A stretch of 64,000 nucleotides of DNA, from NCBI GenBank assembly GCA_045657485.1, contig JAZOTE010000063.1, positions 34,006-98,005 on the forward strand, written 5' to 3'. A program made the translations under genes and the position numbers. This DNA is from Eubacteriales bacterium. GTDB taxonomy: Bacteria > Bacillota > Clostridia > Oscillospirales > CAG-272. The notes under the pieces were generated by a model, which was given only the letters and a program-made list of their open reading frames with translations, was not told the DNA's origin and did not search any database. The stretch's first letter is position 1; the number at the start of each line of letters is the position of its first letter. This document shows positions 50,665 through 64,000 of the stretch, in pieces.

Positions 50665-50674
50665 CAGATAAACC

Positions 50675-50703
50675 TTGAAAAAAACAAAGTAATGTGCTAC
50701 AAT
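50675..50703 (+). promoter_or_regulatory. sigmaA promoter for ECF S-component gene
   Basis: TTGAAA-17 nt-TACAAT, with TGc directly upstream of the -10 (extended -10). Confidence 0.7.
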
Positions 50704-50754
50704 AGGGATGAATAGCAATTTATTTGTGATTAATATTTTTCCAGAGGTCTTACA

Positions 50755-51297
50755 ATGAGAAACAGCTCGATTAAAAGCGTTAATGTTGAAAAGCTTGTAT
50801 ACGCAGCGGTGCTCACCGCATTGGTGGTTGTTCTGCAGTTCATTCCTATTAGATTCGGTACCTTCGAGCTCGCTTTGTCTGTTCCGATCATTGTTGTAGG
50901 AGCGGCGATATGCGGAGCTACGGTCGGCGCTTGGCTTGGCTTTGTATTCGGTTTCGTTGTTTTGTTTCTTCCCGGCACGGCGTTATATATGGGCATCGAC
51001 GTGTTTGGTACTATCGTCACGGTTCTCGCTAAGGGCGTTCTCGCCGGTCTTCTTTCGGGACTTGCCTACAGGGTAGCAGTCGGCACTAACAGATACGTGG
51101 CGTGTTTTATAGCCGCTATAATCGCAACAGTCGTTAATACCGCGGTATTCATCTTAGGCTCGTATATATTCTTTGATCAAAACATCTTCGAGCTTTTAAA
51201 ATATTTGATTAGCATCAATTTCGCTATTGAGCTTGTTGCTAACGTCGTGCTCGTCCCCACAATTTACCGTATAATTAGCATTAAGAGGAAAATTTGA
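50755..51297 (+). CDS. ECF-transporter substrate-specific (S) component-like membrane protein, substrate unknown
   Basis: 180 aa, ~6 TM helices, N-terminal pattern KLVYAAVLTALVVVLQF typical of ECF S components. No EcfA/T genes nearby. Confidence 0.65.
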   Translation: MRNSSIKSVNVEKLVYAAVLTALVVVLQFIPIRFGTFELALSVPIIVVGAAICGATVGAWLGFVFGFVVLFLPGTALYMGIDVFGTIVTVLAKGVLAGLLSGLAYRVAVGTNRYVACFIAAIIATVVNTAVFILGSYIFFDQNIFELLKYLISINFAIELVANVVLVPTIYRIISIKRKI

Positions 51298-51350
51298 ATG
51301 ATAGGGCTACTCTTCAAGGTAGCCCTTCGTCTTTAGTGACGGTGTGAAAA

Positions 51351-52025
51351 ATGTTGGAAATAGTATACAAATCTAAAAACGCAGTGGTCATCAATAAACC
51401 CGTGGGAATATCCTCTCAACCGGACCGTAGCGGAGCAAAGGATGCTATGACCGCTCTTTCGGAGCTCCTTTTTTCTATCGGTGAGAACGGTACTCTTTAT
51501 CCCGTGCACCGCCTTGACAACGTTGTTGGCGGTCTTATCCTATACGCCAGAAACAGAAGCGCGGCGGCAGAGCTGTCATCTCTCGTTAAAGAGCTTGGAA
51601 TAGGCAAGGAGTATTACGCCGTAATAGAAGGTAGTCTTCAGGACGGTGATTATACCGATCATCTGGTAAAGGACGCTGCAGGGAACAGGGCGAGAGTGTC
51701 CGACCCATTGGACAAAAGCGCCAAGCTTGCATCCCTCACGCTTGTGTCGCTGTCCACCGTAGAAACGAAAAGAGGCGTTCGCTCTCTCGTGAAAATAAAA
51801 CTCCATACAGGCAGATTTCATCAGATCAGAGCGCAGATGTCATCACGCGGCGCTGCAATTTGCGGCGACTCGAAATACGGAAGCCGCGATTTTTTGACCA
51901 GAACTCCCGCATTGTTTTCCTGCTCCTTATCAGCAGAGGCATTGGGTGAAAAAATATCCCTGAGGGCATATCCGGATATTACGAAATATCCTTGGAATTT
52001 ATTTTCTGCCGAGAATTATATATAG
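51351..52025 (+). CDS. RluA-family pseudouridine synthase (no S4 domain)
   Basis: 224 aa with the catalytic HRLD motif (LYPVHRLDNVVGGLIL) and HTGRFHQIRAQM. Confidence 0.88.
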   Translation: MLEIVYKSKNAVVINKPVGISSQPDRSGAKDAMTALSELLFSIGENGTLYPVHRLDNVVGGLILYARNRSAAAELSSLVKELGIGKEYYAVIEGSLQDGDYTDHLVKDAAGNRARVSDPLDKSAKLASLTLVSLSTVETKRGVRSLVKIKLHTGRFHQIRAQMSSRGAAICGDSKYGSRDFLTRTPALFSCSLSAEALGEKISLRAYPDITKYPWNLFSAENYI

Positions 52026-52046
52026 AATTTACCGAAAGGCGACGAA

Positions 52047-53186
52047 ATGACCGAGAAACTTTATTATCAGGATCAATATATCAGTGAGTTTTCCGCAACC
52101 GTTATATCCTCTGTGAGCTGCGAGGGCGGATACGACACCGTCCTTGACCGTACCGCGTTCTTTCCGGAGGAGGGAGGACAGAGCTCGGATACGGGATACA
52201 TAGCTGGAGCCCGCGTTTTCTACGTTTACGAAAAGGACGGGGAAATACATCATGTAACTGACGCCGCTCTTTCGGGCGAGGTGTTATGTAAGCTTGATTT
52301 CGCTTCAAGATTTGATAAAATGCAGTGCCACACCGCCGAGCATATTCTGTGCGGAATTATCCATTCTCTCTTTGGACTTGATAACGTCGGCTTCCATCTC
52401 GGCGACGACGAGGTGACCTTTGACATAAGCGCGCCCCTTGAACGAGAGGAGCTTAACAGAGTGGAGCGCCTTGCTAACGAGGCAGTATTCCGCAACGTTT
52501 CGGTCAAGGCTTATTTCCCATCCTCCGATGAGCTTTCTTCGATCAAATACAGATCAAAGCTCGATCTTACCGACGGCGTGCGCCTCGTGGAAATAGACGG
52601 AGTAGACGTCTGCGCCTGCTGCGCGCCTCACGTTTCCCGAACGGGTGAGATAGGACTTATAAAAATACTCGAATCGATGAAGCACAGAGGCGGTATGCGC
52701 ATATGGATCGTCGCCGGCTCTCGCGCTCTTGCTGATTACAACGAAAAGTATAGAAATATTCGTGAGATATCCGCGGCTCTTTCCGCTCCGCAGCACGAAA
52801 CCGCCGATGCGCTCACTGCTTATATGCAGGACGCGGAGCAGGTCAAATACCGTTTAAAGCTTGCGCGCCGTCAGCTTGCGGAGGCAATGGCTGATGCTAT
52901 CCCGTCAACCGACGGAAACGCGCTGTACTTCTTTGACGGCTTTTCCATCGACGATCTACGCTCCTTCGCAAACGCCGCTACGGCCAAGGTCGGCGGTTCG
53001 TTGATATCTCTCGGCGGTACCGAGGGAGATTATAAGTACGTCATAACCTCAAACAGCTCTGATCTTTCTTTGGAGATAAAGTCTGCAAACGCGGCTCTCG
53101 GAGGTAAGGGTGGAGGTAAACCGAACGCGGTTCAAGGTTCTTTCTCGGCTTCTCTTGATGCTATAAAAGCATATTTCCACCTGTAA
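52047..53186 (+). CDS. alaX: alanyl-tRNA editing protein (AlaX-L type: editing domain + DHHA1)
   Basis: 379 aa with HTAEHIL, the CCAPHV zinc motifs, and C-terminal GGKGGGKPNAVQG typical of the AlaRS C-terminal/DHHA1 domain. Confidence 0.82.
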   Translation: MTEKLYYQDQYISEFSATVISSVSCEGGYDTVLDRTAFFPEEGGQSSDTGYIAGARVFYVYEKDGEIHHVTDAALSGEVLCKLDFASRFDKMQCHTAEHILCGIIHSLFGLDNVGFHLGDDEVTFDISAPLEREELNRVERLANEAVFRNVSVKAYFPSSDELSSIKYRSKLDLTDGVRLVEIDGVDVCACCAPHVSRTGEIGLIKILESMKHRGGMRIWIVAGSRALADYNEKYRNIREISAALSAPQHETADALTAYMQDAEQVKYRLKLARRQLAEAMADAIPSTDGNALYFFDGFSIDDLRSFANAATAKVGGSLISLGGTEGDYKYVITSNSSDLSLEIKSANAALGGKGGGKPNAVQGSFSASLDAIKAYFHL

Positions 53187-53211
53187 AAGCTAGATTAACA
53201 AAGCTTCAATC

Positions 53212-53256
53212 ATCGGATGCTGCTTGCCGCGAGGCTCGGAGCATTCGATTTTTTTG
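53212..53256 (+). terminator. rho-independent terminator after alaX
   Basis: ATCGGATGCT-18 nt-AGCATTCGAT (one G-U pair) followed by TTTTTTTG. Confidence 0.8.
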
Positions 53257-53414
53257 TATTATTACTTCTTGTCGAGAGTCCGCACGGCTCCATTTTTAAG
53301 CATTAAGAGCGAGCTCGGAAATCGGCTGAGAGGCAAATTAAATAAAATCGCAATAAAAATTTAGCAAATTTATCTAAATATATCCAAAAATATTTACATT
53401 TTTTTGCTTTTCGC

Positions 53415-53444
53415 TTGACAATGCTTGGAAAGAAGTGCTATTAT
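53415..53444 (+). promoter_or_regulatory. sigmaA promoter for malic-enzyme gene (and possibly the downstream operon)
   Basis: TTGACA-18 nt-TATTAT, preceded by an A/T-rich UP-like tract. Confidence 0.65.
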
Positions 53445-53509
53445 ATTATTCGGGTAAATTTTTACTAAAATTATTTTATTTTAGATCGTTACGATTTAAG
53501 GAGGAAAAT

Positions 53510-54679
53510 ATGGATATCAAACAGGAAGCCTTGAAAAAGCATAAGGAGTGGGGAGGAAAAATTGAAGTTATTTCCAGAGCCCCCCTCGCAAACTCGCAGG
53601 ATTTGTCCCTTGCGTACACTCCCGGTGTCGCAGAGCCTTGCCTTGAGATACAGAAGGATATATCGAAGTCCTTTGAGCTTACAAGACGTCATAATCTCGT
53701 TGCTGTAATAACAGACGGATCGGCTGTTTTGGGACTTGGTGATATAGGTCCGGAGGCAGGTATGCCCGTTATGGAGGGAAAGTGCGCGCTCTTCAAGTCG
53801 TTCGCTGACGTTGACGCCTTTCCGCTTTGTATAAAAACTCAGGACGTTGATGAGTTCGTCAGAACCGTTTATCTTCTTTCCGGCAGCTTCGGCGGAATCA
53901 ACCTTGAGGATATTGCCGCTCCCAGATGCTTCGAGATAGAAACCAGGTTAAGACAGCTTTGCGATATACCAGTATTCCACGATGACCAGTACGGAACGGC
54001 TATAGTCGTTGCCGCGGCAATGCTGAATGCGCTTAAGGTCGTTAAAAAGGATATTTCGAAGATAAAGGTTGTTATTAACGGCGCGGGCAGCGCCGGAACC
54101 GCGATCGGCAATCATATTATGAAGCTCGGTGTTAAAAATCTCGTTATGGTTGACCGATTTGGTATTATTTGCGAGGGAATGGATCTCAGTCCCGCCCACG
54201 CAGAGCTTGCGAAGAAAACTAATCCGGAGCATCTGATGGGTACTCTTGCCGACGCTATGAAGGGCGCGGACGTGCTTATCGGTGTTTCCGCTCCTAAGAT
54301 CGTTTCTAAGGAAATGGTCAGCACGATGGCAAAGGATGCTATCGTATTCGCAATGGCAAATCCCGTTCCCGAAATATTCCCCGACGAAGCTAAGGAGGGC
54401 GGCGCTGTAGTCGTTGGCACGGGACGTTCCGACTATCCTAACCAGATAAACAACGTTCTCGCTTTCCCTGGAATCTTCAGAGGAGCTCTTGACGTTCGCG
54501 CAAGCGATATAAATGATGAGATGAAGATGGCTGCGTCTTACGCTATAGCCGGACTCGTTTCGGATGATGAGCTTAATGCGAATTACATTATGCCCACCGC
54601 TTTTGATAAGAGAGTCGGTCCCGCGGTTGCAAGCGCAGTTGCGGAGGCAGCGAGAAAAAGCGGCGTTGCGAGAAAGTAA
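53510..54679 (+). CDS. NAD(P)-dependent malic enzyme (short, YtsJ/MaeA-like)
   Basis: 389 aa from ATG 53510 (AAGGAGGA RBS) with LAYTPGVAEPC, TDGSAVLGLGDIG, FGGINLEDI, GAGSAGTAI and NNVLAFPGIFRGALD. Confidence 0.92.
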   Translation: MDIKQEALKKHKEWGGKIEVISRAPLANSQDLSLAYTPGVAEPCLEIQKDISKSFELTRRHNLVAVITDGSAVLGLGDIGPEAGMPVMEGKCALFKSFADVDAFPLCIKTQDVDEFVRTVYLLSGSFGGINLEDIAAPRCFEIETRLRQLCDIPVFHDDQYGTAIVVAAAMLNALKVVKKDISKIKVVINGAGSAGTAIGNHIMKLGVKNLVMVDRFGIICEGMDLSPAHAELAKKTNPEHLMGTLADAMKGADVLIGVSAPKIVSKEMVSTMAKDAIVFAMANPVPEIFPDEAKEGGAVVVGTGRSDYPNQINNVLAFPGIFRGALDVRASDINDEMKMAASYAIAGLVSDDELNANYIMPTAFDKRVGPAVASAVAEAARKSGVARK

Positions 54680-54758
54680 TCTATTTTAGCTGACAAATCT
54701 GTGTTCAAGCAGGTTTTTGGACACAACATACTCAAAATTTGATTTTAGGAGAACAGAT

Positions 54759-55517
54759 ATGATAAGCAAGAAGGTAGTAAAATTACCGGTAAAGATATTC
54801 GATAACCGCGCAGACATGGGTGTAGAGGCGGCAAAAGACGCTGCGAAAATTATCAATGACACTATAGCGAAAAACGGTGTTGCAAACGTTGTTTTTGCGG
54901 CTGCTCCATCTCAGAACGATTTGCTTGAGAATTTGCTGAAGGAGGATATAGACTGGACTAAGGTCAGAGGCTTCCACCAGGATGAGTATATCGGAATCGA
55001 TGCGAGCGAGCCTGCCGGATTCGGTAATTTCCTTAACAGAGCTATTTTTGAAAAGGTTAAATTCAAGGAGCTCCACTATCTTCTTTGCAAGGCTGATGAG
55101 GCAGAGGAGAAGTGCGCCGAATACACAGACCTTCTGAAAAATTATCCTATCGATCTGATTTTCCTTGGCATAGGCGAAAACGGTCATCTTGCCTTTAACG
55201 ATCCTGCCGTTGCGGACTTTAACGATCCGAAGACGGTCAAGATCGTGGAGCTTGATGACGTTTGCCGTCAGCAGCAGGTTAACGACGGATGCTTTGCAAC
55301 GCTTAACGACGTTCCCAAGCAGGCTATGAGCCTTACTATGTCTTACATTATGTCGGTTCCTCACGCGATCTGCGTAGTACCCACGGTTCGTAAGGCGAAC
55401 GCTGTTTACAACGCTCTTACGGGACCTGTTACGACTGCTTGTCCCGCCAGCATTCTGAGAGAGCATAACGATGCTGTTTTGTATCTCGACAAAGACAGTG
55501 CGTCAAAAATAATTTAA
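54759..55517 (+). CDS. glucosamine-6-phosphate deaminase / 6-phosphogluconolactonase-family protein (NagB-like)
   Basis: 252 aa from ATG 54759, with FHQDEY and LGIGENGHLAFNDP (NagB GxGxNGHxAFNEP-like). Confidence 0.8.
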   Translation: MISKKVVKLPVKIFDNRADMGVEAAKDAAKIINDTIAKNGVANVVFAAAPSQNDLLENLLKEDIDWTKVRGFHQDEYIGIDASEPAGFGNFLNRAIFEKVKFKELHYLLCKADEAEEKCAEYTDLLKNYPIDLIFLGIGENGHLAFNDPAVADFNDPKTVKIVELDDVCRQQQVNDGCFATLNDVPKQAMSLTMSYIMSVPHAICVVPTVRKANAVYNALTGPVTTACPASILREHNDAVLYLDKDSASKII

Positions 55518-55527
55518 GAGGTAGTCT

Positions 55528-56259
55528 ATGGAAACATTCAAAATGACCGCAGATGAAATTTGCGCGTTAGATCCGGAGCTTGCTATAATACCTGTTGGTT
55601 CATTAGAGCAGCACGGCCCGCATCTCCCTATAATGACGGATTGGGCAATCGCGACCGAGCTCGGTAGACGCGTTGCTGAGAAAATGAACGCTTTCCTTCT
55701 TCCCGCGTTTCCGGTTTCAACCTGCCGGGAGCATATGGGCAAAAAGGGATCTGTATGGATGGAATCGACGACCTTCTATCAAATGATGTACGACGTTATT
55801 ATGTCATTGAAGGAGCAGGGCTTTAAGAGAGTAGGTATAATAATCACTCACGGTGGAGTATTCATAGCCAATCCGCTCGTACGTGATCTTAACGCAAGGT
55901 TTAACCCGGAATTACAGGTTGCCTTCGTAACTCCCGATAGCATAAACGTCGAGAGCATTACCGAAACGAAGGGGTTGCACGCAGATGAAAACGAAACCTC
56001 GCAGATCCTTGCTATTGCGCCCGAAACAGTACATATGGACAGAGCGGTTGACTACGTACCGGAGGTTCCCAGACCTTATTTGAATTACGGCAGTATTTTC
56101 CGCGCTTCTCCTTACGGCGTGTGGGGATGTCCCACTAAGGCTACTGCGGAAAAGGGTGAGAAAATTCTTGAGCTTGCTACCGAAACGGTGGTAAACGAGC
56201 TTAACAAGGCGTTTGACTATATGGCAAAGAAGGAAAAAGTAGGTTATAGCGAGTTTTGA
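55528..56259 (+). CDS. creatininase-family metal-dependent amidohydrolase
   Basis: 243 aa with IIPVGSLEQHGPHLPIMTD, ITHGG and HADENETS. Confidence 0.8.
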   Translation: METFKMTADEICALDPELAIIPVGSLEQHGPHLPIMTDWAIATELGRRVAEKMNAFLLPAFPVSTCREHMGKKGSVWMESTTFYQMMYDVIMSLKEQGFKRVGIIITHGGVFIANPLVRDLNARFNPELQVAFVTPDSINVESITETKGLHADENETSQILAIAPETVHMDRAVDYVPEVPRPYLNYGSIFRASPYGVWGCPTKATAEKGEKILELATETVVNELNKAFDYMAKKEKVGYSEF

Positions 56260-56341
56260 CTCTGTCAACGGTATAGCTTGAAAAAATATTTTACCGTGAG
56301 ATAGACGTTTGTTTCGCGGTGATAACGATATTGGAGGAAAA

Positions 56342-57412
56342 ATGAGAAAATTAAAGGTATTGATCGTGGGTGCAGCTTTTTCAGCTGATCTCCATTCTGA
56401 CGGTTACAGCAGAATAATGGACAAGGTTGACATAGTTGGTATTTGCGATAAGAACGTTGCGGCGATAAAGACACTCGCTGACCGTTACGGCTTCACGGGT
56501 TACGAGGCGTATGATGATTATAATACCGCTATTGCAAACTGTGACTGCGACTTAGTGGATATTTGTATGCCAAACTTCCTGCATCACGACGTCGCTATCA
56601 AGGCGATGAACCGCGGCAGAGACGTTATTTGCGAGAAGCCTCTCGCGACTACCGTTGAGGATGCGGAGGATATGGTAAAAACAGCGGAGAAACTCGGCAA
56701 GCACATATACTACGCGGAGGATTGGCTGTTTGCTCCCGCTTTCAGAAAGGCGATCTCTCTCATTGAGAGCGGTCAGCTTGGCAAAATGCTGTACGTAAGA
56801 GCGCGCGAGTGTCACAGCGGCTCTCACAGCCCCTTTGCGCAGAGCATTAAGTATTGCGGCGGCGGCTGTATGGTACACCTCGGTGTTCACCCCGTTGCGT
56901 TTATGCTTGCTATGAAGGATAATAAATGGGCGGAGATTTCCGCTATGTCCTCCGGCGGAGCTGAAAATAATATGGTTCACAAGCAGATGGAGGGTGAGGA
57001 TTGGGCAGGAGCGTTTATGCGCTTCCAGGATGGAACCTACGCTACTCTTGAGGCAAACTACATAACCGTAGGCGGTATGGAGGATATTTTAGACGTTTAC
57101 TGTGAGAAGGGAACTATCCACGTTGATCTGTCATTCTCCGGTCCCGTTAAGGTATTCTCAATACCCGGACTCGATTACACCATCGAGAAGGCTGAGGTCA
57201 CGACCGGTTGGTCCAACGTTGCGGTAGATGAGAAGTATTCTCTCGGATACTGCGGAGAGATCAACCACTTCGTTGATTGTGCTCTGTCCGGCAAGGACGC
57301 TCAGGTCGGACTTCGGGGAATTGACGGATATGAAACTCTGAGAGTTATAAATTTGATTTACGAATCTGCTCGCAAGGGCGTGAATATCAAAAACTGCTCT
57401 GAGGAGAAGTAA
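56342..57412 (+). CDS. Gfo/Idh/MocA-family NAD(P)-dependent oxidoreductase
   Basis: 356 aa from ATG 56342 (GGAGGAAAA RBS) with LIVGAAFSA...ICDKN, VDICMPNFLHHD and VICEKPLA. Confidence 0.85.
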   Translation: MRKLKVLIVGAAFSADLHSDGYSRIMDKVDIVGICDKNVAAIKTLADRYGFTGYEAYDDYNTAIANCDCDLVDICMPNFLHHDVAIKAMNRGRDVICEKPLATTVEDAEDMVKTAEKLGKHIYYAEDWLFAPAFRKAISLIESGQLGKMLYVRARECHSGSHSPFAQSIKYCGGGCMVHLGVHPVAFMLAMKDNKWAEISAMSSGGAENNMVHKQMEGEDWAGAFMRFQDGTYATLEANYITVGGMEDILDVYCEKGTIHVDLSFSGPVKVFSIPGLDYTIEKAEVTTGWSNVAVDEKYSLGYCGEINHFVDCALSGKDAQVGLRGIDGYETLRVINLIYESARKGVNIKNCSEEK

Positions 57413-57415
57413 TAT

Positions 57416-59995
57416 ATGAGCAATAAAAAGATACGTGATATAAATATTCCCGTGACGATAGGCGGAGTCACGTTTAAGAACCCCTTTTTCGTTGCGTCGG
57501 GACCTACTACGAAAAGCGTAAAGCAGCTTGTCAGAATTGAAGAAACGGGTTGGGCTGCGGCTTCGATCAAGCTTAGCATTGACCCCGCTCCGTACATAAA
57601 CCGCAAGCCTCGTTACTCGCTCTTCAAGGACAGAGATGCTCTCGCTTTTACAGCTGAGAAAAGGCTCACCTTCGAGGAGGGCTTGAAGCTGATAAGAGAT
57701 GCTAAACCAAAGCTTCACGATCTTAAGCTTATGGCAAATATCACCTACGCAGGTGATTCGGGTGTTGACGGCTGGGTCAATATGGCGAAGAAGTTCGAGG
57801 AGGCAGGCGCAGATATCATTGAGCTTAATATGTGTTGCCCAAATATGAGCTATAACCTTGAGATGACAAGCGGCGGAAGCCAATCTGCGAATAAGCAGAC
57901 GGGCGCAAGTATGGGACAGCAGGCAGAGGTTGCCGCAGAGATTGCCAGAGCGGTTAAGGCGGCTATATCGATACCTCTTTTCGTTAAGCTTACTCCGGAG
58001 GGCGGACAGATTGCGAAGGTTGCGAAGGCTCTCTACGATGCAGGTGCTGATGCTGTCGGCGGAACAGGAAACCGCCTTGGTATGCCACCTATTGATATTG
58101 ACGAGCCGGGCAGGGCATTCTATCATCTTCAAAAAGAGATATCAATGGGCTGTCATTGCGGAAAGTGGCTGAAGCCGCTGGCGCAGCGCGATACCTACGA
58201 AATTCGCAAGGTCTGCGGTATGGACGCTCCCATTATGGCAGCGGGCGGCATAACGAATTGGCGCGACGCTGTAGAAATGATTTTGTGCGGCGGAACACTT
58301 CTCGGAGTTTGCGCAGAAACGCTGATATCCGGATATGACATTTGCAGACCTATGATCGAGGGGCTTGACAAATATATGCAGGAGCACGGATACTCCGATC
58401 TTTCCGAGATGCGCGGATTGGTTGTTCCGGAGGTTAGAACGGCTAACGACGTAACGATTTTTGCGGGCTACGCAAAAATCAAAGAGCCAAATCTTTCCGC
58501 TCCCTGTAAGAGTGCTTGTCCGCACCACGTTCCAACTCAGGCTTATATACAGAAAATCGCTAAAGGTGAATATAAGGAAGCTTTCGACCTTATTACAGCA
58601 AAAAATCCTCTGCAGAACATCTGTTCTTTCGTATGCAACCATCCCTGTGAGGATGCTTGTATCAGAGGTGATTACGATGCTCCTCTCAAGATCCGTAAGC
58701 TCAAGAGATTCGTTCTCGAATACGGCAAGGCGCAGGGCTGGACACCTGCTTTCGCTAAGGCTGATCTGAACGGACATAAGGTTGCCGTTATCGGTGCCGG
58801 TCCCGCGGGACTTTCCTGCGCTTCCGAGCTTCGTAAGGGTGGCTATGAGGTTACTGTTTTTGAAAAAGAAAATACCGCGGGCGGATTGGTTAGATTCGGC
58901 ATACCGGATTACGTGCTGAATAAGAACATAATTGACGACGAGGTCAAATTCCTTTCTGAAAACGGAGTGAAGTTTGAGTTTGGAAAAGAATTTGGTAAGG
59001 ACGTCACGGTGGATACTCTGAAGAACGCCGGCTTTGAGGCTACGTTCGTTGCCATCGGCGCCGGTAAAAAGCAGACGAGCGACATCGTTGGAGCTGAAAA
59101 GACTCAGGATGCAGTAGAATTTTTGAAGGCTCTGTCCCTCGGCAAGACCGTTTTGGTTAAAGACAATGTGGTCGTTATCGGTCGTGGATTTGCTGCTATG
59201 GATGCGGCTCGTAGCGCTTTGAGGGTTGGAGCAAAGCAGGTTACTCTCGTTTATACTTCAAAGTACGGAAAGGGTACCTACGATACCGAAACTCTGGCTC
59301 TTGCGGAGCAAGAGGGCGTAACTCTCCTCGATAACGCAACGGTTAAGGAAATCGGTGACGGTTCCGTCACGCTCGTTCGCGGCGGAGCAACTATGTCATT
59401 ACCTTACGGTGACGTTATTCTTGCGAACGGATACGTTGCGGATATAGAAGCGATAGGCGATGTCGAAGAGAAGAACGGCTTCGTTAAAATAATCAATGCC
59501 CGTACCAATATTCCCGGAGTTTACGCAGGCGGTAACGCAGTTCGCTCCGCCAACGTTATAACCGCTATTTCCGCAGGCAAGAACGCGGCGGCTGTTATTG
59601 ATAACGATATTATGGGAGATAAGGCTACTCTGGACGGCGTTGTGGCTGTTAAGACGGTCAATACCGAAATCGTCAGAGAGCGTACGGGTTATCTGAAAAA
59701 GGATATGAATAACGTTTCCTTGGACAAGGATGCCGACTCACGTAAGGACAGCTTTGACGTTTACGAACGAGTTATGACTGAGGAGGAAGCTATCAAGGAG
59801 GCGTCGCGCTGCTTAAATTGCGGTTGCGGCGAGGGCTGTCAGCTTTGCAAAACGATCTGCACTGATTTTGCTCCGGAAATTTCGGACATAGATACGATGC
59901 ACATCAGAAAAGAAGAGTGTGTTGCTTGCGGTATGTGCTTCAATCGCTGTCCTAACGGCAATATAGAAATGGTAAATCTAAATTACACAGTATAA
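57416..59995 (+). CDS. fusion oxidoreductase: DHOD/dihydropyrimidine-dehydrogenase (PreA-like FMN) domain + GltD/PreT-like FAD-NAD(P)H domain + C-terminal 2x[4Fe-4S]
   Basis: 859 aa. N-terminus FKNPFFVASGP...IELNMCCPNM...AAGGI. Middle CPHHVPTQAYI...NPLQNICSFVCNHPCEDACIRG and KVAVIGAGPAGLSCA...GGLVRFGIPDY. C-terminus CLNCGCGEGCQLCKTIC...CVACGMCFNRCP. Confidence 0.85.
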   Translation: MSNKKIRDINIPVTIGGVTFKNPFFVASGPTTKSVKQLVRIEETGWAAASIKLSIDPAPYINRKPRYSLFKDRDALAFTAEKRLTFEEGLKLIRDAKPKLHDLKLMANITYAGDSGVDGWVNMAKKFEEAGADIIELNMCCPNMSYNLEMTSGGSQSANKQTGASMGQQAEVAAEIARAVKAAISIPLFVKLTPEGGQIAKVAKALYDAGADAVGGTGNRLGMPPIDIDEPGRAFYHLQKEISMGCHCGKWLKPLAQRDTYEIRKVCGMDAPIMAAGGITNWRDAVEMILCGGTLLGVCAETLISGYDICRPMIEGLDKYMQEHGYSDLSEMRGLVVPEVRTANDVTIFAGYAKIKEPNLSAPCKSACPHHVPTQAYIQKIAKGEYKEAFDLITAKNPLQNICSFVCNHPCEDACIRGDYDAPLKIRKLKRFVLEYGKAQGWTPAFAKADLNGHKVAVIGAGPAGLSCASELRKGGYEVTVFEKENTAGGLVRFGIPDYVLNKNIIDDEVKFLSENGVKFEFGKEFGKDVTVDTLKNAGFEATFVAIGAGKKQTSDIVGAEKTQDAVEFLKALSLGKTVLVKDNVVVIGRGFAAMDAARSALRVGAKQVTLVYTSKYGKGTYDTETLALAEQEGVTLLDNATVKEIGDGSVTLVRGGATMSLPYGDVILANGYVADIEAIGDVEEKNGFVKIINARTNIPGVYAGGNAVRSANVITAISAGKNAAAVIDNDIMGDKATLDGVVAVKTVNTEIVRERTGYLKKDMNNVSLDKDADSRKDSFDVYERVMTEEEAIKEASRCLNCGCGEGCQLCKTICTDFAPEISDIDTMHIRKEECVACGMCFNRCPNGNIEMVNLNYTV

Positions 59996-60010
59996 TTTTG
60001 GAGGATTAAA

Positions 60011-60829
60011 ATGTATTCGGTAAATTTTGATATTTCGGGTCAGGTGGCTGCTATCACCGGCGCGGGCGGAGTGATCTGCGGTACTGTAGCAAAGGAAATG
60101 GCAAAAAAAGGAGTAAAGGTCGCTCTTCTCGATCTCTTCCTTGAGAGTGCTCAGAAAATTGCGGACGAAATCGTTGCGGATGGCGGTGACGCTATTGCTA
60201 TCAAGACGGACGTGCTTGACCGTGAGAGCCTTGAGGCTGCTCGTGACAAGGTTGTTGAAAAGTACGGCAAGATCGATATTCTTATCAACGGTGCAGGAGG
60301 CAACAAGCCTCAGGCTACGATTTCTAAGGATATAGATTTCTTCCATCTCGATCTTAATGCGTTCAAGTGGGTATTCGATCTCAACGTTACCGGCGCCGTT
60401 CTTACGACTATGGTATTCGGTGAAATTTTGGCAAAGCAGGGCTACGGCAACGTTATAAACATTGCTTCTATGTCCAGCTACCATCCTCTTACAAATACCG
60501 TAGCATACTGTGGCGCAAAGGCAGCGGTTGCCAACTTCACGGAGTGGATGGCTACTCACTTCAATCAGAACTACAGCAACAGCATAAGAGTAAACGCGAT
60601 AGCTCCCGGTTTCCTTCTTACTAATCAGAATAGATTCCTTTTGACAAAGGAAGACGGATCTGCGACGGATAGAGGACAGCGCGTTCTCGCCAAAACTCCT
60701 ATGGGACGTTACGGCGAACCCGTTGAAATGGTTGGACCAATCATCTTCCTTTGCTCAGAGGCTGCATCGTTCGTAAACGGCGCGGTTCTTCCTGTCGATG
60801 GCGGATTCTCATCATATTGGGGCGTTTAA
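60011..60829 (+). CDS. SDR-family oxidoreductase (UxuB/YjmF-type sugar-acid reductase-like)
   Basis: 272 aa with ITGAGGVICG, INGAGGNKPQA, the catalytic YCGAKAA and PGFLLT. Confidence 0.85.
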   Translation: MYSVNFDISGQVAAITGAGGVICGTVAKEMAKKGVKVALLDLFLESAQKIADEIVADGGDAIAIKTDVLDRESLEAARDKVVEKYGKIDILINGAGGNKPQATISKDIDFFHLDLNAFKWVFDLNVTGAVLTTMVFGEILAKQGYGNVINIASMSSYHPLTNTVAYCGAKAAVANFTEWMATHFNQNYSNSIRVNAIAPGFLLTNQNRFLLTKEDGSATDRGQRVLAKTPMGRYGEPVEMVGPIIFLCSEAASFVNGAVLPVDGGFSSYWGV

Positions 60830-60853
60830 TTATTATTGAAAAGAGGAAAGAAA

Positions 60854-61945
60854 ATGCAGTACCATCATATTGATTATAATAAAATTGAGAAGTTTTGTAT
60901 AGAAGCGTTCAAGGGATACGGATTTAACGAGGAGGAGAGCAAGCAGATCACTGCCGTTCTTCTCGAGGCAGACCTGAGCGGAATCGAATCTCACGGTGTT
61001 CAGCGTATGATCCGCTATCATAAGGAGATCACGGGCGGAATGGTTAAAATCGACGCTAAGCCTGAGATCGTTTTCGAAACACCTCTTTCCGCGGTTATCG
61101 AGGGAAATGACGCGATGGGACAGACACTCGGTGTTAAGGCAATGAAAATCGCCATCGAAAAGGCGAAGAAATCCGGCTTCGGTATGGTAACCGTCCGCAA
61201 TTCCAATCATTACGGAGTTGCAGGCTACTACTCCAGAATGGCAGCGAACGAGGGTCTTATCGGTATGTCAATGACCAATACCGAGGCAATAATGGTTCCC
61301 ACCTTCGGTAAGCAGGCTATGCTCGGTACAAACCCCATCGCCTTTGCGATGCCCGCAGATCCCGTCAACTTCTCCTTCGATGCGGCAACTACGGTTGTTC
61401 CGAGAGGTAAGCTTGAGGTTTACGTTAAGAGAGGAAACGGTCTTCCTCTCGGTTGGGCGCTCGACGAGAACGGACACGACAGCAACGAGCCCGACAGAGT
61501 TCTTTCAAATATTATAAACAAGACAGGCGGAGGAATTTTGCCCCTCGGCGGTTCGGGCGATCTGACCTCAGGATACAAGGGCTATGGCTTTGCTATGCTT
61601 TGCGAGATCGCAACGGCGATTCTCTCCGGCGGTACTACCTCCAACTATATTTATAAAACACCCGGCAGATCCAATATCGCTCAGTGCTTCATAGCTATCG
61701 ATTACGGTATGTTCGGTGACAAAAAGGCTATTGAGGCTTCTCTTTCCAAGTATCTTGACGAGGTACGTAACTCCGCAAAGGCAGACGGACAGGACCGTAT
61801 CTTTATTCACGGTGAGAAGGAAGCAGAGGCGAGAGATCGCGTACTCAAGGAGGGCGTATATCTCAACGATAAGACGTATGATGAAATGAAGATGATCGCT
61901 GAGTATACCGGCTCTAAGGAATATCTCCCTGAGTATCTTGATTGA
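60854..61945 (+). CDS. Ldh_2 (malate/L-lactate dehydrogenase type 2) family oxidoreductase
   Basis: 363 aa from ATG 60854 with GIESHGVQRM, RNSNHYGVAGYY and LGTNPIAFAMP. Confidence 0.85.
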   Translation: MQYHHIDYNKIEKFCIEAFKGYGFNEEESKQITAVLLEADLSGIESHGVQRMIRYHKEITGGMVKIDAKPEIVFETPLSAVIEGNDAMGQTLGVKAMKIAIEKAKKSGFGMVTVRNSNHYGVAGYYSRMAANEGLIGMSMTNTEAIMVPTFGKQAMLGTNPIAFAMPADPVNFSFDAATTVVPRGKLEVYVKRGNGLPLGWALDENGHDSNEPDRVLSNIINKTGGGILPLGGSGDLTSGYKGYGFAMLCEIATAILSGGTTSNYIYKTPGRSNIAQCFIAIDYGMFGDKKAIEASLSKYLDEVRNSAKADGQDRIFIHGEKEAEARDRVLKEGVYLNDKTYDEMKMIAEYTGSKEYLPEYLD

Positions 61946-61972
61946 TTTATTTACTGTCAAAAATTCCTTTTT

Positions 61973-62011
61973 AAAAGTGCTTGTGAATTTCACAAGCACT
62001 TTTGTTTTTTT
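61973..62011. terminator. bidirectional rho-independent terminator between the operon and fbp
   Basis: AAAAGTGCTTGTGA-att-TCACAAGCACTTTT followed by GTTTTTTT. A-run and T-run flank both sides. Confidence 0.85.
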
Positions 62012-63998
62012 ACTTTCTTTTAGCTCTGCTGCGGCCTTCCTTTATTTCGCCGTTTTTGTAGGCCTCCGTCAGTAGCATCAGATCTCCGATTCTGTCGCGT
62101 ATATCAGCGCCCTCGTCTGTATCTCTGATTAGTATTTTATTTTTTCTTTCTTCGAAAACAGCGGTTTGTGATAGAATATCCTCGTTGTTTTTCACAGCAT
62201 TTTCCTTACTTGAAAAGGGTTGATGAGCTGAAATCTTCATTCCGTCAGCATTATATATTAAGGTATAACCGGCTATTCCGGTCTTGTTATGATACGCTCT
62301 GCAAAATCCGCCGTCTATAACGATTAGCTTTCCGTTCGCTTTGATCGGATTTTCACCCTTGTTGACCGGAATATGACCGTTGATTATATGCGCTTTCTCT
62401 CCGTAAATTGAGAATTCGTTCAGTAGCATTGACACTATCCCTTCGTCGTTCCAAGATCGATAATAAGCGTTGGATGGCTCGCTGTGTGCGCATTTATCAT
62501 TGATAAGAAGCCTTTCAAAAGTTGTTATTTTCTTTCTTGAGCAAAGTGGAGAATCTTTTCCGCACCACAGAAACCAGCACAGATCCTTTGCTTTTTCTCT
62601 CGCGGGATCTCCATCCTTTTTTATATATCCGACCCGTATTGCCTGATCAAAATAATCCATCATAGCTTTGCCATGCTTTCCGTCCGCGGCGTCCAGAGCC
62701 ATCATTCCGCCGTTTTCATCTAAGGGGATACATCCGTGAAATAGCAAATTCCCGTTATACACCGTGTACATCTCGCCTTTTTGTAACAGAAATTTTACGT
62801 GCCTTTGCAGTCGTTCCGAACGCATAAATCCGTTTTTCAGATAATTCATCACGTCAAGCTCCGCTTCTGTGAGCTTGTACGGATCTTCGGGGGCTACGGT
62901 AGGGAAGAAGGTGTCACTAAGCTTATAGGTCTTATCATCTATAATAATTTCTCCTCGAACGAGCTCCATTTTGTGTAGTAATAGCCTATCATCCATATGA
63001 AATTCGGGATGCCGCATTATCAGCTGTCCTTCTAATTTGAACTGTATTACGCTTATTGCCTTGCGCATACGCGCGAGAATATCCAAGTTATCTCTCGTCG
63101 GTATATCATCCTGAAAATCGTCGCGAGGCATATATTCGCTAACGTTTGCGCTTTTATAAATCTCTAAGGCGAATAAAGCTAACGGTCTAAGTGATATTCC
63201 GTATCCGATTTCGATAACGTCCGGATTTCTATAGGTTACCGAGTTGTTTACCGCTGTTGCAATACAGGCAAGCGAGCCTGCGGCAGCTCCTATCCATAGC
63301 GCGTCGTGATTTCCCCACTGTATATCAATGTTTTTGACGCTCATAAGCTCGTCCATCACAATATCTGCTCTTGCCCCTCTGTCAAATATATCTCCAACTA
63401 TATGAAGTCTGTCAACGACTAGAGCATTTACCGTATTTGCGAGAGATGTTATCAATCCGTCTATAGCGCCCGTTCTTATCATCGTCTTAATAATACTCTC
63501 GATATAGTCGTTTCGCTTTTCTCTATCCGTATATAGGCTCATTAGCTCAGATATAATTGAGCAGAATGCTGTTCCGTTTAAACAAATCTGTTCATCGACC
63601 TTCTCCAGCGTGTACTTTTCGCTGACAAGCCGACAGATCTTTACGAGTCTTTTTACAGTCACCAAATACCATTCATACGTGATTTTTCCGGACTGTCGTA
63701 TATCGTTTAGCTTTTCTTCCGGATAATATATGAGCGTGGCGAGCTCGCTTCTTTCGAGCTTTGTCATTGAATGCGAGAAGAGCAGATCTACCTTTTTTCT
63801 GATAACTCCCGATGCGCATCGTCTGATGTGTGTAAACGCCTCCTGCTCACCGTGTAGATCGCTCATAAAATGCTCAGTACCCTTGGGCAAATTCAGCTTT
63901 GCGCTGAGAGCGGTTATCTCGCACGCGGTACTACGCATATCGGGGAACTGCTTTGCCAGCTCTAAAAGAAATCGTTTTTCTTCCGTTTTTATTTCCAT
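62010..63998 (-). CDS. fbp: fructose-1,6-bisphosphatase class 3
   Basis: 662 aa with the N-terminus LLELAKQFP....A..EI..L.A.LNLPKGTEHF.SDLHGE and GDIFDRG...QWGNHD typical of Firmicutes Fbp class 3. Confidence 0.93.
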   Translation of the reverse strand: MEIKTEEKRFLLELAKQFPDMRSTACEITALSAKLNLPKGTEHFMSDLHGEQEAFTHIRRCASGVIRKKVDLLFSHSMTKLERSELATLIYYPEEKLNDIRQSGKITYEWYLVTVKRLVKICRLVSEKYTLEKVDEQICLNGTAFCSIISELMSLYTDREKRNDYIESIIKTMIRTGAIDGLITSLANTVNALVVDRLHIVGDIFDRGARADIVMDELMSVKNIDIQWGNHDALWIGAAAGSLACIATAVNNSVTYRNPDVIEIGYGISLRPLALFALEIYKSANVSEYMPRDDFQDDIPTRDNLDILARMRKAISVIQFKLEGQLIMRHPEFHMDDRLLLHKMELVRGEIIIDDKTYKLSDTFFPTVAPEDPYKLTEAELDVMNYLKNGFMRSERLQRHVKFLLQKGEMYTVYNGNLLFHGCIPLDENGGMMALDAADGKHGKAMMDYFDQAIRVGYIKKDGDPAREKAKDLCWFLWCGKDSPLCSRKKITTFERLLINDKCAHSEPSNAYYRSWNDEGIVSMLLNEFSIYGEKAHIINGHIPVNKGENPIKANGKLIVIDGGFCRAYHNKTGIAGYTLIYNADGMKISAHQPFSSKENAVKNNEDILSQTAVFEERKNKILIRDTDEGADIRDRIGDLMLLTEAYKNGEIKEGRSRAKRK

Positions 63999-64000
63999 TT

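What the first reader, a model, noticed from the sequence alone, without database searches (positions are those of the whole stretch)
54759..61945. Compact six-gene redox/amidohydrolase operon with no recognisable pathway, transporter or regulator
Six genes are packed with 3-82 nt gaps, are all on the + strand, and are closed by a strong bidirectional terminator (61973-62011). In order they are:
- a NagB-like deaminase/isomerase (GIGENGHLAFNDP);
- a creatininase-family cyclic-amide/formamide hydrolase (VGSLEQHGPHLP);
- a Gfo/Idh/MocA dehydrogenase;
- an 859-aa dihydropyrimidine-dehydrogenase-like flavo-Fe-S fusion;
- a UxuB-like SDR;
- an Ldh_2-family dehydrogenase.

No terminator separates the cluster from the upstream malic-enzyme gene, so the TTGACA/TATTAT promoter at 53415 may drive all seven genes.

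Four different oxidoreductases together with a ring-opening amidohydrolase and a sugar-phosphate deaminase-like enzyme do not match any catabolic route I know. In particular it is not the reductive pyrimidine pathway (no dihydropyrimidinase or beta-ureidopropionase), not uronate catabolism (no isomerase, dehydratase, kinase or aldolase), and not amino-sugar catabolism (no NagA or kinase).

My working hypothesis is a route for a cyclic-amide or N-heterocyclic sugar-like compound. This is inference only.
Basis: inference. Interest (0 to 1): 0.6.

Follow-up and report, generated by a model that had tools for sequence, protein, structure and literature searches.

The report
Conserved sugar-acid operon with DPD-like reductase
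The six genes are a real operon, conserved across many uncultured gut Clostridia, that most likely breaks down an unidentified amide-bearing sugar acid using a pyrimidine-reductase-like iron-sulfur flavoenzyme, a chemistry not yet described for sugar metabolism.

Summary
Six tightly spaced + strand genes (NagB-like, creatininase-family, Gfo/Idh/MocA, an 859-aa DHODH/DPD-barrel + GltD-like + ferredoxin fusion, UxuB-type SDR, Ldh_2) follow a malic-enzyme gene and end at a strong terminator.

The adjacency is not fortuitous. In 80 related loci the dehydrogenase sits directly upstream of the fusion in 77/77 testable cases. The NagB-like gene is present in 58/70, creatininase-like in 57/70, SDR in 49/70, Ldh_2 in 43/65 and malic enzyme in 23/54.

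Relatives supply what the window lacks:
- LacI or TetR regulators and a LIV/HAAT-type ABC transporter;
- downstream, KDG-kinase-like plus KDPG/KHG aldolase genes, or a fructuronate-reductase-like, hexonate-epimerase and gluconokinase-like set.

So the route ends in hexonate/KDG metabolism. The binding protein keeps LivJ's carboxylate contacts but replaces the ammonium-binding Glu with Asn. An amidohydrolase (creatininase-like or Amidohydro_3) recurs beside the reductase, echoing YgfK-SsnA in anaerobic urate breakdown.

My best reading is catabolism of a carboxylated, amide-bearing C6 sugar acid. The substrate is unidentified and I found no paper describing the cluster. This scan had already noted the fusion family on other DNA.

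The parts
53415..53444 (+). Sigma-70-like promoter (TTGACA, 18 nt, TATTAT, with TG upstream of the -10). Likely start of a seven-gene transcript.
   Evidence: Best promoter match in 50000-64000 (11 of 12). A terminator-like hairpin plus T-run after the upstream AlaX-like gene is visible in the sequence.
53511..54679 (+). Malic enzyme, about 389 aa from ATG 53511.
   Evidence: Pfam malic + Malic_M. The NADP-malic-enzyme subfamily hit is below its cut-off. Ribosome-binding site and start codon. Attached to the cluster in 23/54 related loci, upstream or downstream.
54759..55517 (+). NagB-like deaminase/isomerase-family protein (Glucosamine_iso).
   Evidence: Pfam PF01182. nagB equivalog 118.6 bits vs cut-off 236.9. 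Against E. coli NagB: D72, H143 and K208 kept, E148 to D, the TGGTP phosphate loop replaced, R172 aligned to Q. Present in 58/70 loci.
55528..56259 (+). Creatininase-family metal hydrolase (amide or cyclic-amide hydrolase; C-C hydrolase not excluded).
   Evidence: PF02633, 186 bits. MftE 101, creatininase 95 and IolN 70 bits, all below their cut-offs. The GSLEQHGPHLP and HGG motifs are present. Present in 57/70 loci. Four loci that lack it carry an Amidohydro_3 gene instead.
56342..57412 (+). Gfo/Idh/MocA sugar/cyclitol-type dehydrogenase, the obligate upstream partner of the fusion.
   Evidence: Pfam. EKP motif. Best PDB hits, at about 66-79 bits, are sugar oxidoreductases: AAOR, DgpA, GFOR and scyllo-inositol DH. 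Directly upstream of the fusion in 77/77 testable loci and less than 200 nt away in 76/80.
57416..59995 (+). 859-aa fusion: DHODH/DPD-type FMN barrel, Fer4_20, FAD/NAD(P) GltD-like module and a C-terminal 2x[4Fe-4S] ferredoxin. Proposed C=C (enone/enamide) reductase.
   Evidence: Pfam and NCBIfam. ELNMCCPN aligns with the pig DPD N668/C671 site and TGNR with N736. The N-terminal barrel is nearly invariant among orthologs, whereas the middle module varies. More than 2000 homologs and 393 loci in the species genome set.
60011..60829 (+). SDR of the UxuB (YjmF)-type 'D-mannonate oxidoreductase' subfamily. Proposed keto-hexonate reductase.
   Evidence: NF006132, 360 bits vs cut-off 281. Two paralogs (48% and 40% identity) each sit next to UxuA elsewhere in the same genome. 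Present in 49/70 loci. In the three loci that carry a Mannitol_dh-family reductase next to the fusion, no SDR was detected.
60854..61945 (+). Ldh_2-family 2-hydroxyacid / 2-oxoacid dehydrogenase.
   Evidence: PF02615, 385 bits. Best PDB hits are archaeal type-2 malate dehydrogenase 1v9n (286 bits) and sulfolactate DH 2x06. Present in 43/65 loci. Where it is missing, a D-2-hydroxyacid dehydrogenase is often present.
61972..62004 (+). Intrinsic terminator closing the operon.
   Evidence: 15-pair stem, 3-nt loop and a T-run; the top terminator hit in the region.

Best explanation
This is a seven-gene catabolic operon (malic enzyme plus six genes) for a small, carboxylated, amide-bearing C6 sugar acid. 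Candidates include an N-acyl-hexosaminuronate, an unsaturated derivative or a lactam derivative. The exact substrate is unknown.

Proposed steps, all inferred:
1. The Gfo/Idh/MocA dehydrogenase oxidises a ring or chain hydroxyl to a ketone. This creates or completes a conjugated X-C(COO-)=CH-C(=O) system that resembles orotate.
2. The fusion enzyme takes electrons from NAD(P)H, or from a ferredoxin-type donor, through FAD and four Fe-S clusters to FMN. It then reduces that C=C using the DHODH/DPD-type Cys acid.
3. The creatininase-family hydrolase cleaves the amide (de-N-acylation or lactam opening). This may pull the reduction forward, as SsnA does for YgfK.
4. The NagB-like enzyme isomerises or deaminates the product to a 5-keto-hexonate of the fructuronate type.
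5. The UxuB-type SDR reduces that to a hexonate, which joins UxuA, KDG kinase and KDPG aldolase encoded elsewhere in this genome (and inside the cluster in relatives).
6. The Ldh_2 enzyme handles a 2-hydroxy/2-oxo acid step. Alternatively, together with the malic enzyme, it forms a malate shunt that converts NADH into NADPH.

Shown here: gene content, co-conservation, and the hexonate/KDG exit genes in relatives. Inferred: the substrate, the order of steps and every individual reaction.
For: Co-conservation:
- The gene order NagB-like, creatininase-like, dehydrogenase, fusion, SDR, Ldh_2 is kept down to about 55% fusion identity. It occurs in Oscillospiraceae, Christensenellaceae and Lachnospiraceae MAGs and in one Anaerolineaceae MAG.
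- The dehydrogenase-fusion pair is universal (77/77).

Exit of the pathway:
- Eda passes its cut-off (283 vs 241 bits). A KDG-kinase-like PfkB gene is present.
- Alternatively, loci carry a Mannitol_dh related to fructuronate/tagaturonate reductases, a nickel-dependent putative hexonate epimerase (NF052594, 632 vs 500 bits) and a gluconokinase-like FGGY kinase.
- The window's SDR passes the D-mannonate oxidoreductase subfamily cut-off. Its paralogs sit beside UxuA in the same genome.

Carboxylated, non-ammonium ligand: the cluster's LIV-type binding protein keeps the LivJ carboxylate contacts S79, T102 and Y202. It replaces E226, the alpha-ammonium ligand, with Asn in the 13 full-length orthologs; the three short variants carry Thr or Ala there.

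Amide step:
- A creatininase-family gene is present in 57/70 loci. Amidohydro_3 replaces it in four GFO-FUS-SDR loci and recurs (36% identity) beside a GFO-less paralog of the fusion.
- In the anaerobic urate pathway, reduction by the similarly built YgfK was detectable only when coupled to the amidohydrolase SsnA (10.1101/2025.05.19.654654).

Reductase chemistry: the DHODH/DPD catalytic NxxCPN site and the FMN-binding Lys are invariant. Invariant Arg and Lys residues (R83, R220, K82) occur where DPD has none.

Sugar link:
- LacI-family regulators are closest to the RbsR/GntR type.
- Small membrane proteins in the cluster show weak similarity to PQ-loop proteins, the family that holds SemiSWEET transporters.
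Against: - No substrate has been tested, and no enzyme reaches any equivalog cut-off.
- The model assigns a firm chemical role to the least understood pair (dehydrogenase plus fusion) by analogy only.
- A four-redox-enzyme route to a hexonate is uneconomical unless the substrate has a feature that ordinary dehydratases or isomerases cannot handle.
- The NagB-like and creatininase-like proteins could instead be a lactonase or isomerase and a C-C hydrolase. No nitrogen would then be needed.
- The window and its 89%-complete genome lack the ABC transporter and the LacI gene, so uptake in this organism is unexplained.
- UxuA is never inside the cluster in the 80 loci examined.
- The malic-enzyme/Ldh_2 link may point to a C4-dicarboxylate product, which the model does not explain.
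- Anoxic gut sources of N-acyl-hexosaminuronates are plausible but not documented here.
Confidence: 0.4

Rival explanations
1. Cyclitol route of the Thermotoga type. The dehydrogenase acts like IolG on an inositol-like ring. A second oxidation makes a cyclic 1,3-diketone. The creatininase-family enzyme acts like IolN, a C-C hydrolase that gives a 5-keto-hexonate. The SDR or Mannitol_dh enzymes, the kinase and Eda finish the route. The fusion would reduce an enone formed by dehydration of the inosose.
For: - IolN is a creatininase-family member and gives a 70-bit hit. myo-Inositol 2-dehydrogenase gives 110 bits. scyllo-Inositol and myo-inositol dehydrogenases are among the PDB hits.
- The downstream modules (keto-hexonate reductase, KDG kinase, Eda, LacI) are what the T. 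maritima pathway needs (pathway recalled from my own knowledge of Rodionova et al. 2013).
- Inositol from phytate is abundant in herbivore guts.
Against: - The IolN and IolG scores are far below their cut-offs (245 and 355). MftE and creatininase score higher than IolN.
- The route gives no role to the NagB-like enzyme, and no natural role to the universal fusion.
- The transporter is LIV-type with carboxylate-binding residues kept, not the ribose-type binding protein usual for inositol.
- No IolM-like or IolO-like gene recurs in the 80 loci.
Confidence: 0.12
2. Reductive ring-opening of a true N-heterocycle (pyrimidine-, hydantoin- or pyridone-like) that carries a sugar or polyol part; this is the first reader's idea. 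The fusion dearomatises the ring, the creatininase-like or Amidohydro_3 enzyme opens it, the NagB-like enzyme removes nitrogen, and the sugar part goes to hexonate/KDG.
For: - The reductase-amidohydrolase pairing recurs in three different gene contexts.
- It mirrors DPD-dihydropyrimidinase and YgfK-SsnA.
- Three of the DHODH/DPD ring-binding Asn positions (N138, N143, N219) and the catalytic Cys are invariant.
Against: - No ureidopropionase, carbamoyltransferase, carbamate kinase or other C-N salvage gene recurs in the 80 loci.
- The DPD N609 position is not conserved, and charged residues replace it.
- Everything else in the cluster is sugar-acid enzymology.
- No natural C6-sugar-fused heterocycle of sufficient abundance is known to me.
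Confidence: 0.15
3. A nitrogen-free unsaturated or lactone sugar acid, for example a delta-4,5-unsaturated uronate or its glycoside, or an ascorbate/diketogulonate-type lactone. The NagB-like protein would act as an isomerase or 6PGL-like lactonase, and the creatininase-like protein as a lactonase. The dehydrogenase plus the fusion would saturate an allylic-alcohol C=C.
For: - Oxidising the 3-OH of an unsaturated uronate gives an O-C(COO-)=CH-C(=O) ring isosteric with orotate (chemical reasoning).
- The Ldh_2 family includes 2,3-diketo-L-gulonate reductase YiaK (165-bit hit; YiaK structures appear).
- The genome is a uronate user: it has UxaC, UxuA, UxaA and GH88.
- Glucosamine_iso includes lactonases.
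Against: - The NagB-like protein keeps the deaminase residues D72 and H143, and its best hits are deaminases at 96 bits, against lactonases at 25 bits.
- Known routes for unsaturated uronates need only two enzymes.
- The hydrolase slot is filled interchangeably by two amidohydrolase-type families.
- A LIV/HAAT transporter is unusual for plain uronates.
Confidence: 0.15
4. Fortuitous adjacency of unrelated housekeeping oxidoreductases.
For: None beyond the absence of a known pathway.
Against: - The same genes occur in the same order in dozens of species-level genomes from several families and two further phyla.
- The gaps are 3-82 nt and there is a single terminator.
- The distribution is patchy: 11 of 300 sampled genomes of the class carry the fusion.
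Confidence: 0.01

Closest known systems
E. coli YgfK with SsnA (NAD(P)H-dependent 2,8-dioxopurine reductase plus ring-opening amidohydrolase of the anaerobic urate pathway; 10.1101/2025.05.19.654654 and 10.1101/2025.04.24.650524)
   Same: - One polypeptide carries an FMN site, a GltD-like FAD/NAD(P) module and Fe-S clusters.
- In one search, residues 362-846 of the fusion align with positions 445-934 of the 1012-position YgfK model, so about 440 positions precede the GltD-like part in YgfK, as the 360-residue FMN barrel does here. The same domain order is therefore likely.
- In both cases the reductase is genetically paired with an amidohydrolase.
   Different: - The score is 240 bits against a cut-off of 835, so the fusion is not a YgfK ortholog.
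- The partner is a sugar dehydrogenase and the context is sugar-acid genes. No XdhD, HyuA, YgeW, YgeX or YgeY genes were seen in the neighbourhoods.
- The hydrolase belongs to the creatininase family, not the SsnA type.
Dihydropyrimidine dehydrogenase (pig DPD; E. coli PreT/PreA)
   Same: The full cofactor set is shared. The catalytic NxxCPx loop with the Cys acid, the FMN-binding Lys and N736 are conserved.
   Different: - The domain order is permuted (barrel first).
- The barrel scores only about 82 bits.
- The N609 region is replaced by an invariant FTAEKR motif.
- There is a 12-residue insertion after the catalytic loop.
- No dihydropyrimidinase or beta-ureidopropionase is present.
Hexuronate pathway of Firmicutes (B. 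subtilis uxaC-yjmBCD-uxuA-yjmF operon type; operon content recalled from my own knowledge)
   Same: A YjmF/UxuB-type SDR passes the subfamily cut-off. An Ldh_2-family gene lies next to it, as yjmC does in B. subtilis. Relatives carry KDG kinase and Eda.
   Different: UxaC and UxuA are absent from the cluster in all 80 loci, although they occur elsewhere in this genome. The cluster adds a NagB-like protein, a creatininase-like protein, the dehydrogenase and the fusion.
Thermotoga maritima oxidative inositol pathway (IolG, IolM, IolN, IolO; recalled from my own knowledge)
   Same: A Gfo/Idh/MocA dehydrogenase together with a creatininase-family hydrolase yields a keto-hexonate that enters the Uxa/KDG route.
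   Different: The IolN and IolG models score far below their cut-offs. No IolM or IolO is present. The fusion and the NagB-like protein have no counterparts there.
NagB-like/deacetylase fusions (NCBIfam NF002557, 'glucosamine-6-phosphate deaminase-like protein', 653 positions)
   Same: A deaminase-like module scores 106 bits over model positions 19-275. Here it is paired with a separately encoded hydrolase, the creatininase-family protein.
   Different: The score is below the cut-off of 384. That the rest of the 653-position model is a deacetylase of the LmbE/PIG-L type is my recollection and was not tested here. The function of that family is itself untested.

Membership tests
Reductive pyrimidine (Pyd) pathway | DPD-type reductase that meets the PreA/PreT equivalog scores | tested here: not met
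   PreA model NF006183 scores 203 bits vs cut-off 335. GltD-type models are all below their cut-offs.
Reductive pyrimidine (Pyd) pathway | Dihydropyrimidinase and beta-ureidopropionase (or an equivalent) in the cluster | tested here: not met
   Neither is among the window genes nor among the recurrent neighbour families I annotated for the 80 loci. The accessory Amidohydro_3 protein gives no D-hydantoinase hit at E<=1e-10, and its paralog in L018 scores only 27 bits.
YgfK / 2,8-dioxopurine reductase | TIGR03315 equivalog score and a uricolytic gene context | tested here: not met
   240 bits vs cut-off 835. The context is sugar-acid genes.
Canonical Uxa/Uxu hexuronate pathway | Fructuronate reductase (UxuB type) | tested here: met
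   The SDR scores 360 bits vs cut-off 281 for NF006132, a subfamily-level model. The substrate itself was not tested.
Canonical Uxa/Uxu hexuronate pathway | UxaC isomerase and UxuA dehydratase in the same unit | tested here: not met
   Both are present elsewhere in the genome (C86, C4, C30). They are absent from the window cluster and were not seen among the recurrent families of the 80 loci.
Canonical Uxa/Uxu hexuronate pathway | KDG kinase and KDPG aldolase | tested here: inconclusive
   They are in the cluster in 10-12 of 54 relatives. In this genome they are unlinked: C134 (51% identity) and C31 (56%).
NagA/NagB amino-sugar catabolism | NagB equivalog score and phosphate-binding elements | tested here: not met
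   TIGR00502 scores 118.6 bits vs cut-off 236.9. The TGGTP loop is replaced and R172 aligns to Q. D72, H143 and K208 are kept. No NagA is present.
Creatinine amidohydrolase | TIGR04448 equivalog score | tested here: not met
   94.6 bits vs cut-off 235. PDB creatininases score only 56 bits. The sequence reads HGG where I recall creatininase has the second-metal Glu (recollection).
Thermotoga inositol pathway (IolG/IolN) | IolN and IolG equivalog scores | tested here: not met
   IolN scores 70 bits vs cut-off 245. IolG scores 110 bits vs cut-off 355.
Type-2 malate / sulfolactate dehydrogenases (Ldh_2) | Family membership and a specific equivalog | tested here: inconclusive
   Pfam Ldh_2 scores 385 bits, so family membership is met. 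Sulfolactate DH scores 252 bits vs cut-off 500, which is not met. The best PDB hit is MDH 1v9n at 286 bits.

The most novel reading that the evidence does not exclude
The Gfo/Idh/MocA dehydrogenase and the DPD-like Fe-S flavoenzyme form a previously unknown two-enzyme module. It oxidises a hydroxyl and then reduces the resulting orotate-like enone. This would bring pyrimidine-type reductive chemistry into carbohydrate catabolism. With an amide hydrolase, the module would let gut and digester anaerobes consume a class of N-acylated or lactam sugar acids for which no pathway is known, for example amino-uronic acids of bacterial or archaeal cell walls.
Probability: 0.3. Interest if true: 0.8.

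Novelty: new variant of a known kind. Interest (0 to 1): 0.62.

Why it matters
- The fusion enzyme occurs in about 4% of sampled species of this class (11 of 300), and 393 loci in the species genome set encode a relative. The 80 loci examined come mostly from ruminant, human and bird guts and from anaerobic digesters, and nearly all carry the dehydrogenase beside it. No member has an assigned substrate.
- Finding the substrate would add a new catabolic route to gut carbon and nitrogen budgets.
- It would also give the first function for a DPD/YgfK-like reductase outside nucleobase metabolism.
- It would assign roles to four large 'family-only' annotations: NagB-like, creatininase-like, Ldh_2 and Gfo/Idh/MocA.
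- The variant gene sets mapped here (binding protein, LacI/TetR regulators, alternative exits) provide direct experimental handles.

Tried and rejected
- **Complex prediction.** Tested the dehydrogenase against the FMN-barrel domain of the fusion, using alignments A3 and A4. Verdict: 'no answer' (score 0.00). This is not evidence either way.
- **Sequencing runs.** Operon structure therefore rests on sequence and synteny only.
- **Literature.** No paper in the library combines 'creatininase' with 'Gfo Idh MocA'. A search for creatininase with dihydropyrimidine dehydrogenase gave nothing relevant.
- **GlcNAc1A (oxidised chitin) idea.** The known deacetylase OngB is a D-aminoacylase-type enzyme (PMC12017989). 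The accessory Amidohydro_3 protein of the cluster is not of that type: its best PDB hit is an uncharacterised YtcJ-like hydrolase, 3icj, at 65 bits. The idea is not supported, though not excluded.
- **Free alpha-amino-acid conjugates** (fructoselysine, glucosaminate). Disfavoured because the binding protein lacks the ammonium-binding Glu.
- **Own-genome search** for the LIV-type binding protein and the LacI ortholog. Only weak hits at 24-27% identity.
- **Naive ORF calling.** It produced spurious antisense ORFs (clusters c9, c10, c14, c20, c27), so I replaced those counts with tblastn-based counts.
- **GFO-less paralog context** in L017, L018 and L024 (BNR_2, a 557-aa protein with no Pfam or NCBIfam hit, an enolase-superfamily protein, a HAD hydrolase, TetR, Amidohydro_3). 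It gave no nameable pathway.

Full report
**1. Observation**

ORF listing and Pfam/NCBIfam scans confirm seven consecutive + strand genes:
- malic enzyme;
- a Glucosamine_iso (NagB-like) protein;
- a creatininase-family protein;
- a Gfo/Idh/MocA dehydrogenase;
- an 859-aa chain with DHO_dh, Fer4_20, Pyr_redox_2 and Fer4 domains;
- an SDR that passes the PRK08277 'D-mannonate oxidoreductase' subfamily cut-off (360 vs 281 bits);
- an Ldh_2 protein.

Using the start codons that follow ribosome-binding sites (54759, 56342, 60854), the intergenic gaps are 79, 10, 82, 3, 15 and 24 nt. The hairpin at 61972-62004 is the best terminator in the region, and no comparable site lies between the malic-enzyme gene and the cluster. 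The promoter at 53415-53444 is the best match in the region. The malic-enzyme gene starts at ATG 53511, not at the GTG inside the promoter.

**2. Is the adjacency meaningful?**

The fusion has thousands of homologs. It occurs in 11 of 300 sampled genomes of its class, and 393 loci in the species-level genome collection encode a relative.

I fetched the 80 best loci and scored every window gene against them with tblastn. I counted only loci whose contig reaches far enough to test each gene:

| Gene | Present / testable loci |
|---|---|
| Dehydrogenase, directly upstream of the fusion | 77/77 |
| NagB-like | 58/70 |
| Creatininase-like | 57/70 |
| SDR | 49/70 |
| Ldh_2 | 43/65 |
| Malic enzyme | 23/54 |

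The dehydrogenase lies less than 200 nt from the fusion in 76/80 loci. The two commonest gene orders are the window's own (10 loci) and the same set with the malic enzyme at the other end (12 loci). The order holds down to about 55% fusion identity and appears in one Anaerolineaceae MAG; shorter dehydrogenase-fusion-SDR versions occur in a Brevefilum and a Prolixibacteraceae MAG. Fortuitous adjacency is excluded.

**3. What relatives add**

Neighbourhoods from precomputed Pfam tables and my own clustering and annotation show several additions.

*Upstream:*
- a LacI-family regulator, closest to the RbsR/GntR types, or a TetR regulator;
- a complete LIV/HAAT-type ABC transporter (Peripla_BP_6, two BPD_transp_2 permeases, two ATPases);
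- in some loci, a small 89-104-aa membrane protein with weak PQ-loop (SemiSWEET-family) similarity, or an AEC-family permease.

*Downstream, one of two sets:*
- an Eda aldolase (283 vs 241 bits) with a KDG-kinase-like PfkB; or
- a Mannitol_dh related to fructuronate/tagaturonate reductases, a nickel-dependent putative hexonate epimerase (632 vs 500 bits), a gluconokinase-like FGGY kinase, a D-2-hydroxyacid dehydrogenase and Eda.

*Hydrolase slot:* four loci that lack the creatininase-like gene carry a 530-aa Amidohydro_3 gene after dehydrogenase-fusion-SDR.

The pathway therefore ends in hexonate/KDG metabolism, and it always contains an amidohydrolase-type step somewhere.

**4. The window's own genome**

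The genome is 89% complete. It has no ortholog of the transporter or the LacI gene. It does have unlinked Eda-like and KdgK-like genes. It also has two UxuA genes, each next to an SDR paralog of the window's SDR (48% and 40% identity), plus UxaC, UxaA and GH88. A hexonate made by the operon could therefore be finished elsewhere in the genome.

**5. Residue-level checks**

- *NagB-like protein vs E. coli NagB.* It keeps D72, H143 and K208. E148 becomes D, the TGGTP phosphate loop is replaced, and Q aligns with R172. The deaminase/isomerase machinery looks intact, with an altered anion site. This fits a non-phosphate, for example carboxylate, substrate, but that is inference.
- *Binding protein vs LivJ.* The 13 full-length orthologs keep S79, T102 and Y202. 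All 16 sequences compared lack E226, the residue that binds the alpha-ammonium group (Asn in the 13 full-length ones, Thr or Ala in the three short variants). This argues for a carboxylate ligand with a neutral neighbouring group.
- *Fusion barrel vs pig DPD.* The NxxCPN catalytic loop (N138, C141, N143) and N219 align with the DPD and DHODH positions. The N609 region differs: it reads FTAEKR and is invariant. R220 follows N219. The barrel is almost invariant among orthologs, while the FAD/NAD(P) module is variable.
- *Ldh_2.* Its best structural relatives are type-2 malate and sulfolactate dehydrogenases.

**6. Mechanistic reading**

The universal dehydrogenase-fusion pair suggests oxidation of a hydroxyl followed by reduction of a conjugated C=C. 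A ring or chain of the form X-C(COO-)=CH-C(=O) is isosteric with orotate. Such a form could arise, for example, from 3-oxidation of an unsaturated uronate or from an N-acyl dehydro-amino sugar acid. It would also explain the conserved DHODH-type site together with the extra basic residues.

The recurrent amidohydrolase recalls YgfK-SsnA, where reduction was seen only when coupled to hydrolysis. The NagB-like enzyme and the UxuB-type SDR then fit conversion to a 5-keto-hexonate and on to a hexonate. Ldh_2 with the malic enzyme may process a 2-oxo acid, or may form a malate shunt that supplies NADPH. All of these steps are inferred and none was tested.

**7. Rivals**

- A Thermotoga-like cyclitol route explains the creatininase-like, dehydrogenase, SDR, kinase and aldolase genes. 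It leaves the fusion and the NagB-like enzyme without roles, and the IolN and IolG scores are low.
- A true N-heterocycle route fits the reductase-hydrolase logic but lacks any downstream C-N salvage genes.
- A nitrogen-free lactone or unsaturated-uronate route is possible if the two 'nitrogen' enzymes act as a lactonase or isomerase. However, the NagB-like protein resembles deaminases far more than lactonases.

**8. Comparison and novelty**

No equivalog model is met for any of the six proteins. The only cut-offs passed are family or subfamily level. I found no paper describing the cluster.

Earlier agents of this scan had already noted the same fusion family on other DNA, as an uncharacterised reductase paired with a sugar dehydrogenase. 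I confirmed that pairing independently. I also extended it to the whole operon, its transporter and regulators, its alternative exits and the binding-protein signature.

I rate this a new variant of a known kind: a sugar-acid catabolic operon built around an unprecedented reductase module. The substrate remains open.

**9. Limits**

- No expression data could be obtained.
- The complex prediction gave no answer.
- All related loci are MAGs.
- Counts come from the 80 best of 393 loci, which are related to one another and so are not independent.

Noticed in passing
window 56268-56297: A 6-bp inverted repeat, ACGGTA-N18-TACCGT, lies in the 82-nt gap between the creatininase-like gene and the dehydrogenase gene. 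It could be a small hairpin or an operator half-site pair.
   Followed up: no
window 56342-57412 (alignment A3): The dehydrogenase orthologs share an invariant His/Cys-rich stretch, RECHSGSHSPF...CGGGCMVHLGVHP. I do not recall this motif from characterised Gfo/Idh/MocA enzymes, and it might be a metal site.
   Followed up: no
window 54759-55517: The NagB-like orthologs carry a conserved VCRQQQVNDGCF motif with two Cys. E. coli NagB has its phosphate-binding R172 region at this position.
   Followed up: partly
L001:7913-8182, L003:7045-7359, L040:8586-8888: Small 89-104-aa membrane proteins lie inside the cluster in some relatives. They show weak PQ-loop (SemiSWEET-family) hits (E 0.0008-0.01) and may be an alternative transporter. 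The window has none.
   Followed up: partly
L017, L018, L024 (genome-search loci): A 52-54% paralog of the fusion occurs without the dehydrogenase. Its conserved unit holds a HAD phosphatase, TetR, a 557-aa protein with no Pfam or NCBIfam hit, a BNR_2 sialidase-like protein and an enolase-superfamily protein; an Amidohydro_3 gene was also seen in L018 and L017. In L018 a group II intron reverse transcriptase is inserted next to the fusion gene.
   Followed up: partly
G000 C86:38061-39988 and C4:116563-119835: The same genome has two canonical UxuA genes, each beside an SDR-type UxuB paralog. It also has UxaC/UxaA on C30 and GH88 on C92, so the organism is a hexuronate user.
   Followed up: partly
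window 58900-59700 (fusion residues about 500-760): The FAD/NAD(P) module is much less conserved than the FMN barrel among orthologs. The GxGxxA motif at residues 587-592 is kept, but the sequence after it reads YTSK where I recall GltD-type NADPH binders having YRR. The electron donor may therefore not be NADPH.
   Followed up: partly
L036, L089, L100, L032 upstream regions: A GltD-like protein and a protein with a DHODB Fe-S-binding domain, a pair that looks NfnAB-like or PyrK-like, lie a few genes upstream of the cluster in four relatives. They may supply electrons.
   Followed up: no
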